Source: an uncultured Halobacteriovorax sp. (GTDB lineage: Bacteria > Bdellovibrionota > Bacteriovoracia > Bacteriovoracales > Bacteriovoracaceae). Taken from it: a stretch of DNA of 64,000 nt. Where the stretch lies: positions 4,659 to 68,658 of the forward strand of contig CAYGRY010000005.1 in the NCBI GenBank assembly GCA_964352405.1, given 5' to 3'. Below the pieces are notes generated by a model. It was not told the DNA's origin. It ran no database searches and was given only the letters and a program-made list of their open reading frames with translations. The position numbers and the translations under genes are program-made. Every line of letters begins with the position of its first letter. Positions within the stretch are counted from its first letter, which is position 1. Of this stretch, positions 5,032 through 10,293 are shown piece by piece.

Positions 5032-5865
5032 TTAGCCGATAAGCTTAAGAGCCGCTTGGCCTTGAGCATTCGACTGAGCAAGAACTGAAGAACCAGCATT
5101 AGTTAAGATGTTTAACTTAGTGTTCTTAGCAGTTTCTGAAGCATAGTCTGTATCACGGATACGAGAGTTTGCAGCAGACAAGTTCTCTGTAGAAACTTGC
5201 AAGTTACTTACTGTTGATGATAGACGGTTTTGCTTAGCACCTAGTTCAGCGCGCTGACCAGATACTTTTTGGATCGCTTCATCAAGAGTTTCAAGGCTAG
5301 ACTGAGCTCCTTCCTTAGAACTAACAGCGATGCCATCAACTCCTAAATTCCCGATTGAAGAATTTAGAACTGCTGTATCGAATTTAATTCTATCTTGGAA
5401 ATCATCATTATGAATTCCGATTTGGAAGTCATAAGACTCACCGTCACCGTTTAACAGTTTTTTACCGTTAAATTCAGTCACTTGTGAAATACGCTCAATT
5501 TCTTGTTTTAGGTTTTGATATTCAAGATCTGTAAAAGATCTCTCTTTATCACCTACAGTATCAGATGCTGACTGAACTGAAAGTTCTCTCATACGAATCA
5601 AGATATTACCTACTTCTTGCAAGCCACCTTCAGCGACTTGAATCATAGAAATACCGTCATTCGCATTTCGTTCAGCTTGTTGTAAACCGCGTACATTGGC
5701 CTTCAATTTCTCAGAAATTGCGAGACCCGCAGCATCGTCAGATGCTTTCGTAATTCTTGTACCAGATGACAACTTGTTCAGGGTACTAGCCTGTTCCATG
5801 TTGTTCTGGCCGAGAGTACGTTGAGCGGCTAGAGACGTAACGTTAGTGTTAATACGCAAACCCAT
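5032..5865 (-). CDS. fliC: flagellin
   Basis: N-terminus MGLRINTNVTSLAAQRTL and C-terminus NILTNAGSSVLAQSNAQGQAALKLIG are canonical flagellin; AGGAGG lies 6 nt upstream of the ATG at 5865; the longer ORF-track start at 5961 is rejected. Confidence 0.92.
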   Translation of the reverse strand: MGLRINTNVTSLAAQRTLGQNNMEQASTLNKLSSGTRITKASDDAAGLAISEKLKANVRGLQQAERNANDGISMIQVAEGGLQEVGNILIRMRELSVQSASDTVGDKERSFTDLEYQNLKQEIERISQVTEFNGKKLLNGDGESYDFQIGIHNDDFQDRIKFDTAVLNSSIGNLGVDGIAVSSKEGAQSSLETLDEAIQKVSGQRAELGAKQNRLSSTVSNLQVSTENLSAANSRIRDTDYASETAKNTKLNILTNAGSSVLAQSNAQGQAALKLIG

Positions 5866-5986
5866 TGGCTTCCTCCTTGGTTCTACTGTCCCTTCTGAGA
5901 CTAAATCCCCGCCTTGAGGACCAATGAGCATACTGCTCGAGTGGTTTTGTTTTTTGTTCACACTGTTGTGAACCTTTCAATGAATC

Positions 5987-6091: not shown

Positions 6092-6118
6092 TAAAAAGAG
6101 TCGCTATAAAGACGATAA
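6092..6118 (+). promoter_or_regulatory. putative sigma-28 (FliA) promoter of the 6125-10293 operon
   Basis: TAAAAAGA-N11-GACGATAA; the -10 box ends 6 nt before the ATG at 6125 and there is no Shine-Dalgarno sequence. Confidence 0.45.
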
Positions 6119-6124
6119 GAATGA

Positions 6125-8782
6125 ATGGACGGCGGTAAACCACTTATATTCATCAAACCTTATTCAAAGACTTTAGAAAAGCTTGTGGAGGTTTTAAAAG
6201 AATCTTCTGAAGATCAAGGTACAGAAATTTATGAAATTGAAGATGTAAAAGAAGCCATTCAGATTATTCCACAACTCGGCCAATCATTAATTATTGCTGC
6301 TCACCCTAGAAAAACAGCGCAAATACTTCAAGCAGCAGGGAAGCTCATAAGAAAAATTCAATCAAAAGTTCTTCTGCTAACTCCAAAGCCAATACCAAGA
6401 AAAACAATTGATAAGTTTATGAAGGTTGGTCTGACAGAGTGTATTATTGAGCCTATCGCACCTAAAACACTTCAATACAAAGTTAATCTTCTTCTAAGAT
6501 CTATTGTTATAAAAAAAGAAGAAAGTGATTACGAACAAAACTTTGATTCAAACAATGAATCAATCAGTGATGATGAGCTTGCTCGAAAACAACTCAGCGC
6601 CAATATAAAAGAAGAAGACAAAAAGGAAGAAGTTGATGGCAGTGACCTATATGCAACTGAGGATAAAGTTGAAAAGAAAAAATCGACCTATAAAGAAGAA
6701 GCAATTGCAGGATATTACAAAGGTGCTTCAAAAAAGAAAGAGAACGCCATTGATGAAGAAGATGATGATGATACAGATAAAAATAACAGCGAAATAATTG
6801 AAAGCTATTATAAAAACAAAGTCGCGAAACGAGAAGAAGATGTTGAGGAAGAGAGCGAAAAGAAGGCTAAGAAGAGAGAGCTAGAACCTGATGATTTTGA
6901 AGAACTTTCAAAGTCTGCCAGTCTGCTTTTAGAAGACGATGAAGTTGAAGATGAAGAAAAAGCTGTAAAGCAAGAAGTAGAAAAAGAGAAAAGAAACTCC
7001 CTTACTTTTTTAGAATTAGAAGAAGAAAAAAAGAAAAAGGAATCAAAGCCAAAAGCTGAAGACATTGATGAAGCAGATGATGTCGCTAGCCATCATCTAG
7101 ACCTAATCAATGATCTTGAAGATAAAAAAGAAGAAGAAACTTCAGAGCAAGAAAAAGCTATCTCAACAAAGAAGCCTACGACAGTTCTTAACCTTGAAGA
7201 AGAACAACTTGAGGATGAAGACGAAACTTTAAATCCTGAAAAAGAAGAAAAAACTAAGAAATCAAAAACTCTGCTCCAGCTTGAAGCTGAAGAGTTAAAG
7301 ACAGAGGAAGCGCCAAAACCCGAGTCAGATAAGAACAAAGAAAAGCGAAGTGATGCAAAAAAATTAAATCTTGAAGATGAAGAGTTGCCTGATGAAGGAC
7401 TTGAAGATGTTGCAGAACAATTAGATGCTTTAAACTTAGCATCTAAGACCATTTTAGAGCTTGAAACAGATGAAGAAGAAGCTAATGAAGATGCTTTTGA
7501 AGAAGACATTAAAAAAGATGAAAAGAAGAAAGCAGCAAAACTAGATCTAGAAGAAGATCTGAAACCTAAAAAAGAAAAAGATGAGATTTTAGAAGAAGAG
7601 CAAATCTACGGCAAGAAGAAATCTAAACAACTAGCCTTGGAAACAGAAGAAGATTTAGATTACGGCAAGAAAAAACGCGAAGAGAAGCAAAAGCATCAAG
7701 TCGAACGTGAAATTCAAGAACGAGATGAAAACAAGCGCAAAGCTGAGCGAGAAAACCAGGGATATACCGAACGGGAAATGAATAATAAAAGCTCTGGTTA
7801 TACAGAGAATATTCAAGATCAGGGTGGCAATAAGGCTGATGTTCATTCAGACAAGCTTAAAACTCACTATGATAGTCGTACAGGCTTAAAACACAATGAC
7901 GAAGAATGGCGCGAAGTTGAGCGAGAAAGACGTGCAGACGAAGAGTTTAAAGCTGAAAAGAAGAACGAATTTGCCATGCCTGAAAAAACAGACTGGGGTG
8001 AGCAGACGATTGACTACTCTGATCTCAAGAAACAATTCGAGGAAACTGGCTATAGCTTAGGTAGTAAAAAAGAAGTTGGTCAATTTGAAGATGGAGAATC
8101 ATCTAAATCTGGAATGAAGTACACACAAGCTGTTGGTGCAAGTCCTGTAGCTGAAGATGAAGTACTTGAAGAGATTGTTGAAGAAGCTAAAGAAGAGGAA
8201 GAGAACCAAATTTTTGAAGCTGACTTAAAATCGAGCATCACACTCATTAAGTCACTAAATATGTATTACCAGTATTCAAAAAATCGTGATGATACAGTTA
8301 AAGCTATCTTAGAGATGGTCAGAAATGATTTTGGAGCATTAGCAGCGATCAAATATGGCAAGGGCCCCAAAGATGGGAAACTAAAAATTGAAACAATAGG
8401 CAATTGGCTTGATGATGCTTCAAAAGATTCAATCATTAACACCTACACCGATGCAGCAAGTTGCCCAATTTTACCGAGCTATTCAGATAAAACGTTTGAA
8501 CAAAAAAGAACAATGTTCTTCTACCCTTTTACCGAGGGCATTACCACTTTTGCTTGGGTTCAATGTTTTCTTCCTAACGGGATCAAAGAAAATGAACTTA
8601 AGGGACTGGAAGCTTCTCTAGAGACAATGCGCGGAGCTCTACTAGACGAGTTTTATGAGCTTGGGGGAACTGGTCCTTATGCTGAGATCAAAAAGAAAAC
8701 AAAAGAGAAAGAACAATCATCTTCTGTTGCAAAGATTGGAAGCTTTTTTGGTGGCCTATTTGGCAAAAAGAAGGCGGGCTAA
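6125..8782 (+). CDS. pseudo-receiver domain protein with a long E/K/D-rich low-complexity centre and a globular C-terminal domain
   Basis: N-terminal 125 aa has receiver-like beta-alpha periodicity, but LIIAAHPRK replaces the acceptor-Asp strand and IIEPI replaces the conserved-Lys strand; residues about 130-700 are polyampholyte (KEE/EED runs); the last 190 aa are non-repetitive. Confidence 0.75.
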   Translation: MDGGKPLIFIKPYSKTLEKLVEVLKESSEDQGTEIYEIEDVKEAIQIIPQLGQSLIIAAHPRKTAQILQAAGKLIRKIQSKVLLLTPKPIPRKTIDKFMKVGLTECIIEPIAPKTLQYKVNLLLRSIVIKKEESDYEQNFDSNNESISDDELARKQLSANIKEEDKKEEVDGSDLYATEDKVEKKKSTYKEEAIAGYYKGASKKKENAIDEEDDDDTDKNNSEIIESYYKNKVAKREEDVEEESEKKAKKRELEPDDFEELSKSASLLLEDDEVEDEEKAVKQEVEKEKRNSLTFLELEEEKKKKESKPKAEDIDEADDVASHHLDLINDLEDKKEEETSEQEKAISTKKPTTVLNLEEEQLEDEDETLNPEKEEKTKKSKTLLQLEAEELKTEEAPKPESDKNKEKRSDAKKLNLEDEELPDEGLEDVAEQLDALNLASKTILELETDEEEANEDAFEEDIKKDEKKKAAKLDLEEDLKPKKEKDEILEEEQIYGKKKSKQLALETEEDLDYGKKKREEKQKHQVEREIQERDENKRKAERENQGYTEREMNNKSSGYTENIQDQGGNKADVHSDKLKTHYDSRTGLKHNDEEWREVERERRADEEFKAEKKNEFAMPEKTDWGEQTIDYSDLKKQFEETGYSLGSKKEVGQFEDGESSKSGMKYTQAVGASPVAEDEVLEEIVEEAKEEEENQIFEADLKSSITLIKSLNMYYQYSKNRDDTVKAILEMVRNDFGALAAIKYGKGPKDGKLKIETIGNWLDDASKDSIINTYTDAASCPILPSYSDKTFEQKRTMFFYPFTEGITTFAWVQCFLPNGIKENELKGLEASLETMRGALLDEFYELGGTGPYAEIKKKTKEKEQSSSVAKIGSFFGGLFGKKKAG

Positions 8783-9880
8783 GTGAATAATAATGATAAG
8801 CAATATTTCTTTGTTGATTTAGATCATCTTGGAGAGACTCAATTATTTCCTTTTCATATCCATATCTTTAATCCAGCAAATGGAAAGTATAATCCCTACC
8901 TTTTTGCAAATAGCCCACTAACATCTGCAAAAAAAGAATTATTAGTTGAAATTGTTTCTCGTGGTGGGAAAATAGCTATTCCAATGAAACAAAAACGCAC
9001 TTTTCTTGTTGAACAAGAGGTTAAAGAGGAAGATATTCCTGATTTAGCTCCACAAAAAGTTCATTCACTTGAAAAGCGAAGACAAGAACTTCTTGAAAAG
9101 AATAATGAAGTAACAGAAAATTCATCAGTTAAGGCAAAAAATAATACTGACAGTGAAACTAGTAATGAAGAAAAGTTCCATTTTAAAGAGCAGCTGGCCA
9201 ATGCCGCTTCAAGCAATGATTATTCAGGTCTTATTAATTTTGTAAGAGAAGAAGTTATAACCTTTAGCCCGCGTATATCGATGATGACGACAATGTCTTC
9301 CCTAATTGCAGAAACTGTTCTCTTTGATGATAATTTTACAAATAGAACTGTCGCCTTAAGCTTCCTTCTGGCAAAAGGTTGTGGCATTACCGATCCAGAA
9401 TCACTTGGTGACCTTGTCTGCGCAGCCTACTTTTTTCATTTAGGATATACGCAACTTCCACATTCCTGTATGAACAGAGCTCAAGTTGAGTATTCAGACT
9501 CAACAAAAAAAGAATGGAAAAAACATCCGGGGCTTAGTCTCCACTTATTAAGAAAAGCTCAAATTGAATTATCACCAAGAACAAGAATTATTATTGAGCA
9601 GCACCATGAGCGTTATGATGGTCAGGGCTTTCCTCAAATGAAAAAAGGTTCTCACATTGAGCCTTTGGCACTTGTATTAGGAGCAGCCTCACATATATTA
9701 GAATACACAAGCGGCAAAGTATCTGGCACTCCCACAACGCTTCCATCATTTATATTAAATCTTAAAAATAAAACTTATCTACCTGGTATGGAAGTGGAAT
9801 TTGGTGGTTTAATAGAAGAAAGTTTAGCTCATTTAGTAGACACAATGAATTCAACTGATCAAAATAAGAAAGTAGCCTAA
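8783..9880 (+). CDS. HD-GYP-like domain protein with degenerate metal-binding motifs
   Basis: EQHHERYDGQGFP matches the HHExxDGxGYP signature; the expected LHDIGK block reads FHLGYT; GTG start abuts the upstream stop. Confidence 0.75.
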   Translation: MNNNDKQYFFVDLDHLGETQLFPFHIHIFNPANGKYNPYLFANSPLTSAKKELLVEIVSRGGKIAIPMKQKRTFLVEQEVKEEDIPDLAPQKVHSLEKRRQELLEKNNEVTENSSVKAKNNTDSETSNEEKFHFKEQLANAASSNDYSGLINFVREEVITFSPRISMMTTMSSLIAETVLFDDNFTNRTVALSFLLAKGCGITDPESLGDLVCAAYFFHLGYTQLPHSCMNRAQVEYSDSTKKEWKKHPGLSLHLLRKAQIELSPRTRIIIEQHHERYDGQGFPQMKKGSHIEPLALVLGAASHILEYTSGKVSGTPTTLPSFILNLKNKTYLPGMEVEFGGLIEESLAHLVDTMNSTDQNKKVA

Positions 9881-9894
9881 ATCGGGGATATTTT

Positions 9895-10293
9895 ATGCCA
9901 TTAAAAGCCAGTATGAACATTCTGGTCATTGACACAAATTCGACTATGAGACAAAACGTAAAAAAACTTTTGTCTGATATTGGCTTTAAAAATATTAAAG
10001 AAGCGGCTAATGGCAAGAAAGCTCTAGAAGTCTTAGAAGAAAGTAATGTAATTGAGCAACCTATTGAGTTTATTATTTCCGAACTTGAGCTTGAAAAGAT
10101 GACTGCTATTGAGCTTCTTGTAACAATTAGAAAAGATCCTAAAAATGCTAAAACTAAGTTTTTGTTGATGACTGGTGATAGTGACCAGCAAAAAATGATG
10201 CAAGCAATTCGTGCTGGTGTTAACAATGTTGTAGTTAAACCTTTTTCAGCAGATATGCTAAAAGAGAAAATTGCAAAGATTTATGGTCAGTAG
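9895..10293 (+). CDS. CheY-like single-domain response regulator with acceptor Asp replaced by Glu
   Basis: Aligns by eye along the whole of E. coli CheY: VIDTNSTMR (DD to DT), FIISELELE (D57 to E), LLMTGDS (Thr kept), VVVKPF (Lys kept). Confidence 0.85.
   Translation: MPLKASMNILVIDTNSTMRQNVKKLLSDIGFKNIKEAANGKKALEVLEESNVIEQPIEFIISELELEKMTAIELLVTIRKDPKNAKTKFLLMTGDSDQQKMMQAIRAGVNNVVVKPFSADMLKEKIAKIYGQ

What the first reader, a model, noticed from the sequence alone, without database searches (positions are those of the whole stretch)
9895..10293. CheY homologue with phospho-acceptor Asp replaced by Glu (and D13 by Thr)
Seen: by-eye alignment to E. coli CheY holds over the full length. VVDDFSTMRR aligns with VIDTNSTMRQ, FVISDWNMPNMDGLELL with FIISELELEKMTAIELL, LMVTAEA with LLMTGDS, and YVVKPF with VVVKPF. 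Thr87 and Lys109 equivalents are kept, while the acceptor is Glu and one Mg-binding Asp is Thr. Established: Asp-to-Glu at this site cannot be phosphorylated normally and in several receivers partly mimics the active state. Inference: a constitutively 'on' or ligand/partner-regulated CheY.
Basis: partly seen in the sequence, partly recalled or inferred. Interest (0 to 1): 0.6.

Follow-up and report, generated by a model that had tools for sequence, protein, structure and literature searches.

The report
CheY copy that lost its phosphorylation site
This small gene is a real, well-conserved copy of the chemotaxis switch protein CheY that has lost the chemistry needed to be phosphorylated, and relatives catch it at every stage of that loss; it is a new member of a known class (pseudo-receivers), not a new kind of system.

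Summary
Window 9895-10293(+) encodes a 132-aa single-domain receiver, closest to CheY. HMMER alignments place Glu63 at CheY Asp57 and Thr14 at Asp13. Thr87 and Lys109 are kept, and Tyr106 is Val.

The Glu is not a strain mutation. It is invariant in 21 orthologues (64-98% identity) and in a 50%-identical syntenic one. The gene is under strong purifying selection (dN/dS 0.02-0.07).

- **Operon:** it is the last gene of a three-gene operon next to flagellin, found only in this family of predatory bacteria (Halobacteriovorax relatives). The other genes encode a pseudo-receiver / 520-aa polyampholyte / GAF-like protein and an HD-GYP protein lacking metal ligands.
- **Ancestral state:** in other genera the same slot holds a fully canonical CheY, followed by an Hpt-like gene and the phosphatase gene cheX.
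- **Derived state:** one clade lost the second Mg-binding Asp, Ala88 and Phe106. The Hpt-like and cheX genes are gone in the five such loci examined. Nearly all its genomes carry a second canonical CheY, beside cheA wherever its flank was examined.
- **Acceptor residue:** inside that clade it is Glu, Asp or Ala.

It is therefore a phosphorylation-independent pseudo-receiver. A required "phosphomimetic on-state" is not shown. The scan has not found this on other DNA. Partners remain untested.

The parts
9895..10293 (+). CheY-derived single-domain pseudo-receiver (REC*), 132 aa. Key residues: D13 (GAC, 9931-9933), T14 (ACA, 9934-9936; CheY D13), E63 (GAA, 10081-10083; CheY D57), T93/G94 (CheY T87/A88), V112 (GTT, 10228-10230; CheY Y106), K115 (AAA, 10237-10239; CheY K109). 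Stop codon TAG at 10291-10293.
9884..9888 (+). GGGGA ribosome-binding site, 6 nt before the ATG at 9895.
   Evidence: Read directly from the sequence.
8783..9880 (+). Middle gene of the operon: a 365-aa HD-GYP-family protein with substituted metal ligands. The first His is Asn187, and HD is H219-L220. HHERYDGQGFP is kept, with Phe in place of Tyr. It has an uncharacterised ~180-aa N-terminal domain.
   Evidence: Pfam HD_5 at 57 bits. Weak matches to Bd1817 and to PmGH 4mcw, whose HD aligns with HL here. The same substitutions occur in all 25 orthologues.
6125..8782 (+). First gene of the operon, 885 aa. It has four parts: an N-terminal pseudo-receiver (~1-130; no DD pair, acceptor position Ala, Lys position Glu); a ~520-aa Glu/Asp/Lys-rich polyampholyte; a GAF-like C-terminal domain (~700-860); and a short amphipathic tail, FFGGLFGKKKAG.
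   Evidence: No Pfam or NCBIfam family. Weak receiver similarity. Orthologue alignments. AlphaFold2 pLDDT 67, with Foldseek hits that are all GAF domains.
6092..6118 (+). Sigma-28 (FliA)-like promoter, TAAA-N15-GACGATAA, ending 6 nt before the ATG at 6125.
   Evidence: Sequence read. A CGATAA-type box lies 6-15 nt upstream of the start codon in nearly all 13 orthologous loci inspected. GCCGATAA occurs 6 times in the window against 1.26 expected. Promoter activity is inferred, not shown.
5032..5961 (-). Divergently transcribed flagellin gene. This is the conserved left neighbour of the operon. The true start is probably Met33, near 5865.
   Evidence: Pfam Flagellin_N and Flagellin_C. Synteny. 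The alignment begins at residue 33.

Best explanation
The gene encodes a pseudo-receiver: a CheY-fold protein that is no longer switched by aspartyl phosphorylation.

**Likely history**
- Ancestrally, in this family of predatory bacteria (Halobacteriovorax relatives), a canonical CheY was the third gene of a likely sigma-28-driven operon next to flagellin.
- That operon read: BIG pseudo-receiver/polyampholyte/GAF-like protein, then ligand-deficient HD-GYP protein, then CheY, then an Hpt-like protein, then CheX.
- In the lineage leading to this genome, a canonical CheY of the same type came to lie beside cheA, with cheX next to it in this genus, and took over CheA-to-motor signalling.
- The operon-resident copy lost the second Mg-binding Asp, then Ala88 and Phe106, and then the acceptor Asp, which became Glu. 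The now useless Hpt-like and cheX genes were deleted.

**Likely present role**
The protein has been kept under strong purifying selection. I infer that it keeps the second job of the ancestral CheY: acting as a subunit or adaptor of the module formed with the two co-transcribed proteins. It would do this through its remodelled active-site loops and alpha4 face. Any regulation would now come from those partners (GAF-like or HD-GYP ligand binding) or from expression, not from phosphorylation. Glu63, with D13, T93 and K115, most likely fills and stabilises the former phosphorylation pocket.

**Shown:** the residue substitutions, their conservation, the operon, the graded series of loss, the correlated gene losses and gains, and purifying selection.
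**Inferred:** absence of phosphorylation, the binding partners, flagellum-related output, and promoter type.
For: **Alignment and fold**
- Searches give the alignment register and the CheY fold.

**Conservation of the Glu**
- Glu63 is invariant in 21 orthologues at 64-98% identity.
- It is also present in P0026, which is 50% identical and sits in the same synteny.

**Operon conservation**
- The operon BIG / HD-GYP* / REC is found in 26 of 30 loci from a 151-genome sample of the order.
- Of those 26, 10 are fully canonical (DD, D, T, A, F, K, WNMP loop), 6 are degenerate but keep Asp, 9 have Glu and 1 has Ala.
- The HD-GYP partner and the BIG N-domain are degenerate in all lineages.

**Locus states**
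- State A (four loci) has canonical CheY plus Hpt-like plus CheX.
- State B (the window and four other loci) has REC* directly followed by the metallophosphatase gene.
- State C (L010, L064) has CheY plus Hpt-like plus CheX without BIG and HD-GYP*.

**Second CheY in genomes with the degenerate copy**
- Nearly every genome carrying a degenerate operon copy has a second, canonical CheY. In the own genome and in the 11 others whose flank was examined it lies beside cheA. G079's second copy lies next to cheX. G015 and G125 gave no second match at the threshold used.
- In four state-A genomes the operon CheY is itself the best match to that canonical CheY, at 47-50% identity.

**Trees**
- On the CheY tree all degenerate copies form one clade (98/90) with long branches. 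The canonical operon copies and the cheA-adjacent copies form a short-branched group.
- The partner-protein tree gives the same 13-member degenerate clade and at least 4 changes at the acceptor position.

**Selection and divergence**
- dN/dS is 0.018-0.066, against 0.026-0.028 for the canonical CheY of the same genomes.
- Fixed differences from canonical CheY cluster in the beta3-alpha3 loop, the beta4-alpha4 loop and alpha4.

**Literature**
- Glu is the commonest replacement of the acceptor Asp in aspartate-less receivers (26%). Acidic-triad residue 1 and the Lys are usually kept, as here (PMC4395418, PMC12632262).
Against: - No biochemical data exist. Absence of phosphorylation is inferred from residues and gene content only.
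- Ser62 occupies the position of CheY Ser56. From my own knowledge, Ser56 can be phosphorylated in CheY D57N.
- Binding to the operon partners has no direct support here.
- The branching order among canonical CheYs is poorly resolved. 'Duplication then degeneration' cannot be told apart from 'relocation of cheY-cheX plus retention of a copy'.
- G126 carries a partly degenerate copy (DD2 = Asn, T = Ala, acceptor Asp). It showed no second CheY at the threshold used.
- G015, of the window's own genus and about 99% complete, carries a Glu-type degenerate copy yet gave only that one match at E <= 1e-20. G125 (89% complete) likewise gave only one.
- The strict invariance of Glu in the window's own subclade shows some specific role for Glu there. 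I cannot define that role.
Confidence: 0.6

Rival explanations
1. Constitutively active CheY. Glu63 would mimic aspartyl phosphate, so the protein binds the FliM N-terminal peptide all the time. It would set a basal reversal bias of the flagellar motor, independent of CheA.
For: - The protein belongs to the CheY lineage, lies next to flagellin, and sits behind a sigma-28-like box.
- FliM of this genome carries the LSQDEVDALL docking peptide.
- K125 and K128, the equivalents of CheY K119 and K122, are kept.
- Glu at the acceptor activates some receivers (PMC12632262, PMC4395418).
Against: - The sister subclade has Asp or Ala at this position in the same degenerate pocket.
- FliM-contact positions are changed and then fixed: Tyr106 to Val, Ala90 to Ser, Ile95 to Met.
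- Asp-to-Glu alone is reported as insufficient in CheY (PMC4395418).
- A permanently active motor-binding CheY would compete with the canonical CheY that the same genome keeps, together with CheX.
Confidence: 0.17
2. Still a phospho-switch. The protein would be phosphorylated at Glu63, at the neighbouring Ser62, or through another modification such as Glu methylation, and would remain under kinase control.
For: - D13, T93 and K115 are retained.
- Ser62 occupies the position of CheY Ser56.
- PMC4395418 notes that Glu can in principle be modified.
Against: - The second Mg-binding Asp is gone in the whole clade, replaced by T/S/P/A/E/G.
- The Hpt-like and CheX genes that flank the canonical version are deleted in all five state-B loci (the window and four others).
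- The acceptor position tolerates Ala in L019.
- Per PMC4395418, no bacterial signalling example of acyl-phosphate on Glu is known.
Confidence: 0.06
3. A decaying relic of a duplicated cheY with no remaining function.
For: Catalytic residues were lost stepwise, and branches are long on the tree.
Against: - dN/dS is 0.02-0.07, with synonymous sites near saturation.
- There are no frameshifts or stops in more than 40 copies, and length and start are conserved.
- 56 columns are invariant among the 21 orthologues, including a fully fixed TGDSDQQK block.
Confidence: 0.03

Closest known systems
CheY (E. coli, V. cholerae CheY3; NCBIfam NF007901)
   Same: Single-domain (beta-alpha)5 receiver of the CheY lineage. 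It is 35-38% identical, with TM 0.87. D12, T87, K109, K119 and K122 equivalents are kept. Its ancestors in the same operon are canonical CheYs.
   Different: Acceptor Asp57 is Glu, Asp13 is Thr, Ala88 is Gly, Tyr106 is Val, and the WNMP loop is LELE. It scores 87.7 bits against an equivalog cut-off of 189. It is not linked to cheA or cheX.
Aspartate-less receivers / pseudo-receivers with Glu at the acceptor (e.g. Chlamydia ChxR; plant PRRs; fungal Rim15p), as reviewed in PMC4395418 and PMC12632262
   Same: It is recognised as PF00072 but lacks the phosphorylatable Asp. Glu is the commonest replacement in this class. Acidic-triad residue 1 and the pocket Lys are kept, and the second acidic residue is lost.
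   Different: Those examples are fused to output domains (ChxR is an OmpR-type DNA binder). This one is a stand-alone CheY-type protein in a flagellin-linked operon. Its canonical-to-degenerate series is preserved among living relatives.
FrzS pseudo-receiver of Myxococcus xanthus (PMC1974792)
   Same: A motility-associated receiver that lacks the acceptor Asp, does not bind Mg or phosphoryl analogues, and acts through protein-protein contacts.
   Different: FrzS has Ala at the site and carries a long coiled coil. It serves type IV pilus motility, not a flagellar locus. There is no sequence relationship beyond the receiver fold.
Cle proteins of Caulobacter (CheY-like c-di-GMP effectors; PMC5677366)
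   Same: CheY-like single-domain proteins. Localisation of CleA and CleD at the flagellated pole did not depend on their phosphoryl-acceptor residue.
   Different: Cle proteins bind c-di-GMP through a C-terminal Arg-rich extension. This protein ends right after alpha5 and has no such extension.
RpfG-type REC-HD-GYP response regulators
   Same: A receiver domain is associated with an HD-GYP domain. Here they are adjacent genes, and NosR-type REC-HD-GYP is the best NCBIfam match of the neighbour.
   Different: In RpfG the two domains are fused, the receiver is phosphorylated and the HD-GYP is an active phosphodiesterase. Here they are separate proteins. The HD-GYP lacks metal ligands in every lineage, and the receiver is degenerate in this one.

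Membership tests
Receiver domain superfamily (Pfam PF00072) | Profile match above the curated cut-off, and the (beta-alpha)5 fold | tested here: met
   68.4 bits against a cut-off of 30.2, over profile positions 1-110 of 111. The AlphaFold2 model has the strand and helix order of a receiver and superposes on CheY at TM 0.87.
Canonical phospho-accepting receiver / CheY | Phospho-acceptor Asp at the end of beta3 (CheY D57) | tested here: not met
   The residue is Glu63 in the HMMER alignments to CheY3, to E. coli CheY and to the genome's own CheY. It is invariant in the close orthologues.
Canonical phospho-accepting receiver / CheY | Acidic pair that binds Mg2+ (CheY D12 and D13) | tested here: not met
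   D13 is kept, but the second position is Thr14. Across the degenerate clade it is T/S/P/A/E/G.
Canonical phospho-accepting receiver / CheY | Conserved Thr/Ser (T87) and Lys (K109) | tested here: met
   T93 and K115 are invariant in A1. The sister subclade has Arg at the Lys position.
Canonical phospho-accepting receiver / CheY | Aromatic switch residue (Y/F106) coupled to T87 | tested here: not met
   The residue is Val112. Canonical operon orthologues have Phe or Tyr.
CheY equivalog (NCBIfam NF007901) | Score above the curated equivalog cut-off | tested here: not met
   87.7 bits against a cut-off of 189. It is still the best family by more than 45 bits.
CheY (functional definition) | Phosphotransfer from CheA, and phosphorylation-dependent binding to FliM | not testable with these tools
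   Context only. The gene is unlinked to cheA, and the genome has a separate canonical cheY-cheX beside cheA. FliM carries the docking peptide.
Aspartate-less receiver / pseudo-receiver | Recognised as a receiver domain but lacking residues needed for phosphotransfer | tested here: met
   See the rows above. The pattern of acidic residue 1 and Lys kept, with acidic residue 2 lost, matches the ALR census in PMC4395418.
Aspartate-less receiver / pseudo-receiver | Activity independent of phosphorylation | not testable with these tools
   Indirect support only. The adjacent Hpt-like and CheX genes are lost in all five loci examined that hold a degenerate copy (the window and L046-L049).
Cle-type c-di-GMP-binding CheY-like proteins | C-terminal Arg-rich c-di-GMP-binding extension | tested here: not met
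   The protein ends ...KIAKIYGQ directly after alpha5. No orthologue has an extension. The feature is as defined in PMC5677366.
Active HD-GYP phosphodiesterase (the neighbouring gene) | Complete set of His/Asp metal ligands, including the HD dyad | tested here: not met
   The HD of PmGH aligns with H219-L220, and the first His is Asn187. This holds in all 25 orthologues.

The most novel reading that the evidence does not exclude
The three co-transcribed proteins form an undescribed accessory complex of the flagellum or chemotaxis system, specific to this bacterial family. The three are: the pseudo-receiver / polyampholyte / GAF-like protein with its amphipathic tail, the ligand-deficient HD-GYP protein, and the CheY or its pseudo-receiver descendant. 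Ancestrally the complex would have been driven by CheY phosphorylation. In this lineage the phospho-input would have been replaced by a fixed or ligand-controlled state. That would make it a natural, stepwise rewiring of a two-component output, visible in living genomes.
Probability: 0.3. Interest if true: 0.65.

Novelty: new member of a known kind. Interest (0 to 1): 0.45.

Why it matters
Pseudo-receivers make up several percent of all receiver domains. A 2025 review (PMC12632262) states that how bacterial ones are switched remains largely unknown.

This family offers an unusually clean comparative series within one conserved operon. It runs from fully canonical CheY, through partly degenerate copies, to Glu, Asp or Ala pseudo-receivers. 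The phosphatase and Hpt-like genes are lost in the degenerate loci examined, and nearly all genomes with a degenerate copy carry a replacement CheY.

The series gives direct test material for three questions:
- whether Glu at the acceptor site is a phosphomimic or merely a tolerated filler;
- which surface a CheY keeps when it stops being a switch;
- what the flagellin-linked HD-GYP/GAF module of these predatory bacteria does.

It does not change any general principle.

Tried and rejected
- **Complex prediction.** I ran the HD-GYP protein (alignment A2) with the pseudo-receiver (A3). The job returned no verdict and is not used either way.
- **Other motifs or families.** I looked for a Cle-like Arg-rich tail and found none. 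Pfam and NCBIfam gave no family for the 885-aa protein. Its only PDB sequence hit is a non-significant receiver match (E 0.47).
- **Origin of the operon partners.** I asked whether the Hpt-like 167-aa protein of state-A and state-C loci is related to either operon partner. It shows no similarity.
- **Strain-specific mutation or assembly error.** Rejected.
- **Pseudogene.** Rejected.
- **Distribution outside the family.** The HD-GYP partner was not found at E <= 1e-25 in 200 genomes of other families of the phylum. It was found in 31 of 51 sampled genomes of the own family. This is 'not found in those searched', not proof of absence.
- **Literature.** Searches for Bdellovibrio or Halobacteriovorax with CheY and HD-GYP returned nothing on this module.
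- **Distant Glu-type relatives.** P0029 (E-type, 138 aa) lies in an unrelated context on a 2-kb contig and was not pursued.

Full report
**1. What is at 9895-10293**

The plus-strand ORF is open and encodes 132 residues. A GGGGA box lies 6 nt upstream of the ATG. The N-terminus M-[PA]-L-K-A-S-M is shared by all orthologues, so the start is right.

The protein matches Pfam Response_reg over the whole profile at 68.4 bits, E 7.7e-19. Its nearest solved relatives are all CheY: V. cholerae CheY3 at E 3.9e-22 and E. coli CheY at about 3e-19. The best NCBIfam model is the CheY equivalog, but at 87.7 bits against a cut-off of 189.

The HMMER alignments give this register:

| This protein | E. coli CheY |
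|---|---|
| D13 | D12 |
| T14 | D13 |
| E63 | D57 |
| L64-E65-L66-E67 | W58-N59-M60-P61 |
| T93 | T87 |
| G94 | A88 |
| V112 | Y106 |
| K115 | K109 |

The same register comes from the alignment to the genome's own canonical CheY (41% identity). An AlphaFold2 model built on 33 sequences (pLDDT 84.7) has the receiver strand and helix order, with E63 ending beta3.

**2. Is the Glu conserved?**

A search of 5.8 billion proteins returned 21 orthologues at 64-98% identity. They come from Bdellovibrionales and Halobacteriovorax metagenome-assembled genomes. Glu63 is invariant in all of them, as are D13, T93-G94-D95-S96-D97-Q98-Q99-K100 and K115-P116-F117.

A profile search of 1.84 billion cluster representatives found the family as one 50% cluster, followed by a sharp drop in score. 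The next single-domain hits include further degenerate CheY-like proteins. One of them, P0026, is 50% identical, has Glu, and lies in the same synteny.

Nei-Gojobori dN/dS among four genomes of the genus is 0.018-0.066, with synonymous sites near saturation. For the canonical CheY of the same genomes it is 0.026-0.028. The gene is functional, and the Glu is old.

**3. Genomic setting**

The gene is the last of three tightly packed genes:
- 6125-8782
- 8783-9880, whose start abuts the previous stop
- 9895-10293

They are transcribed divergently from a flagellin gene (5032-5961, minus strand) and run into a convergent metallophosphatase gene.

*First gene (885 aa).* It has no family match. Orthologue alignments show four parts:
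- an N-terminal pseudo-receiver with no acidic pair, Ala/Ser/Asn/Gly at the acceptor position, and Glu where the Lys should be;
- about 520 residues that are 30-38% Glu+Asp and 17-23% Lys+Arg;
- a conserved C-terminal domain;
- a short FFGxLFGKK tail.

A modest model of the C-terminal domain (pLDDT 67) hits only GAF domains: CodY, Nlh1 and PDE5/6, at E about 1e-4. I treat that assignment as tentative.

*Second gene.* It encodes an HD-GYP-family protein (Pfam HD_5, 57 bits). The HD dyad reads His-Leu and the first His is Asn, while HHERYDGQGFP is kept. These substitutions are present in all 25 orthologues aligned.

*Promoter.* Just upstream of the first gene lies TAAA-N15-GACGATAA, ending 6 nt before the ATG. 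A CGATAA-type box sits 6-15 nt before the start in nearly all 13 orthologous loci. GCCGATAA itself is over-represented in the window, at 6 occurrences against 1.26 expected. By the established sigma-28 consensus (TAAA-N15-GCCGATAA) this suggests FliA-dependent transcription. That is inference.

**4. The comparative series**

A search of 151 genomes of the order gave 30 loci. In 26 of them the CheY-like gene is preceded by orthologues of the HD-GYP protein, and usually also of the large protein. The state of the third gene varies:

| State of the third gene | Loci |
|---|---|
| Fully canonical (DD, D, WNMP, T, A, F, K) | 10 |
| Degenerate, acceptor Asp kept (second acidic residue is A/N/G; often T-G-V-R) | 6 |
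| Degenerate, acceptor Glu | 9 |
| Degenerate, acceptor Ala | 1 |

Twenty-kilobase contexts show three locus states:
- **State A** (four genomes): flagellin | BIG | HD-GYP* | canonical CheY | a 167-aa Hpt-like protein | CheX | metallophosphatase.
- **State B** (the window and four others): flagellin | BIG | HD-GYP* | degenerate receiver | metallophosphatase. The Hpt-like and CheX genes are gone.
- **State C** (L010 and L064): flagellin | CheY | Hpt-like | CheX | metallophosphatase.

The flanking genes are orthologous: flagellin 71-97%, metallophosphatase 52-88%, and the HExxH protein 30-66% identical.

Genomes with a degenerate copy almost always also carry a second, canonical CheY:
- Eleven genomes whose flank was examined have it next to cheA.
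- In the window's genome the cluster on contig 6 reads CheX-CheY, then divergently CheA-REC, CheW, MCP, CheB, CheR.
- G079's second copy lies next to cheX instead.
- G015 and G125 gave only one match at E <= 1e-20.

In four state-A genomes, the best match to that canonical CheY is the operon copy itself (47-50% identity), and the next matches are 40% or lower.

**5. Trees**

On a tree of 53 CheY-type proteins, all degenerate operon copies form one clade with long internal branches (support 98/90). Two partly degenerate copies, L022 and L024, branch at its base. The canonical operon copies and the cheA-adjacent copies form a short-branched, poorly resolved group.

The tree of the longer HD-GYP partner recovers a 13-member clade that holds the degenerate receivers, apart from L022 and L024, which it leaves unresolved outside. 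It needs at least four changes at the acceptor position.

The order of events read from these trees is as follows:
- First the second Mg-binding Asp is lost and Ala88 becomes Gly.
- Then Phe106 becomes Val.
- Then the acceptor changes.

The most parsimonious reading is one Asp-to-Glu change at the base of the 15-member clade. After that, the Lys-to-Arg subclade reverts to Asp twice and changes to Ala once. The window's subclade (own genus, L016, L017) keeps Glu and Lys throughout.

The module is confined to this family in the sample. The HD-GYP partner was found in 31 of 51 family genomes and in 0 of 200 genomes from other families of the phylum at E <= 1e-25.

**6. Interpretation**

Four observations make loss of aspartyl-phosphate signalling the best-supported reading. 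I put this sub-claim at about 0.85.
- A metal ligand has been lost.
- The acceptor position tolerates Glu, Asp or Ala.
- The adjacent phosphatase and Hpt-like genes have been deleted.
- A replacement CheY is present.

The protein therefore fits the aspartate-less receiver / pseudo-receiver class. In that class Glu is the commonest replacement (26%), and the first acidic residue and the Lys are typically kept (PMC4395418; PMC12632262).

What the protein still does is inferred. The fixed differences from canonical CheY lie at positions 20, 63, 66, 67, 88, 94-97, 100, 101 and 105, plus 14 and 112. They fall on the active-site loops and alpha4. In CheY this surface changes on activation and contacts FliM, CheZ and CheX. 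It has been remodelled and then frozen.

Together with the unbroken operon linkage across the family, this points to a retained protein-protein role within the BIG / HD-GYP* module. Overall confidence in this explanation is 0.6.

The 'constitutively on CheY acting on FliM' idea is not excluded, and FliM has its LSQDEVDALL peptide. It is weakened by two things: the Asp and Ala variants in the sister subclade, and the changes at FliM-contact positions. A complex prediction for the HD-GYP protein and the receiver gave no verdict and is not counted.

**7. Novelty**

Pseudo-receivers with Glu at the acceptor are well known as a class. A stand-alone CheY-type member in a flagellin-linked operon is a new member of that class, not a new kind of system.

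The unusual value lies in the preserved stepwise series and the correlated gene losses and gains. These make the question 'phosphomimic or filler?' directly testable. The surrounding three-gene module is undescribed as far as the searched literature shows.

Noticed in passing
window 5035, 11893, 29839(-), 36862, 46953, 51881(-); also 6111-6118 (one mismatch): The sigma-28 -10 consensus GCCGATAA occurs 6 times against 1.26 expected (0 of 100 shuffles reach 6). Several copies lie only 6-25 nt upstream of start codons. This suggests many FliA-type promoters with very short or absent leaders in this genome.
   Followed up: partly
window 8690-8782 (C-terminus of the 885-aa protein) and orthologues in L003-L006, L042-L049: The large protein ends in a conserved amphipathic tail, FFGxLFGKK(A/G). 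From memory it resembles the MinD/FtsA type of membrane-targeting helix. The domain before it folds GAF-like, at low confidence.
   Followed up: partly
L010:5628-6131; L042-L045 between cheY and cheX; own genome C113:2603-2980: A 167-aa Hpt-like protein (Pfam Hpt 24.1 bits, just under the cut-off) always sits between the canonical operon CheY and CheX. The usual His-containing motif appears to read D-R-V-M-G. The window's genome has only a 32%-identical relative elsewhere, on contig 113.
   Followed up: partly
L053:3-1508, L054:1979-3499, L058:1-1509, L061:2-1537: In several genomes with the degenerate receiver, the second (canonical) CheY beside cheA is itself flanked by a ~500-aa protein with an HD-GYP region, 24-27% identical to the operon HD-GYP protein. 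CheY / HD-GYP adjacency therefore recurs in this family.
   Followed up: no
own genome contig 6 (L001:10554-13571): The only CheA of this genome is a 1005-aa fusion. It has two Hpt stretches, two CheW-like domains and a C-terminal receiver domain. A Kir-type potassium channel gene lies next to cheX.
   Followed up: no
window 5032-5961 (-): The listed flagellin ORF starts at a GTG at 5961. Orthologues align only from its Met33 (MGLRINTN...), so the real start is probably near 5865.
   Followed up: partly
L048:10232-10570 (-): One state-B genome (G043) has an extra small receiver gene inserted between the degenerate receiver and the metallophosphatase gene.
   Followed up: no
L022 (G126:C9:17140-17532): This is a possible intermediate: the operon copy has DD2 = Asn and T87 = Ala but keeps the acceptor Asp, Phe106 and Lys. 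No second CheY was found in that 94%-complete genome at E <= 1e-20.
   Followed up: no
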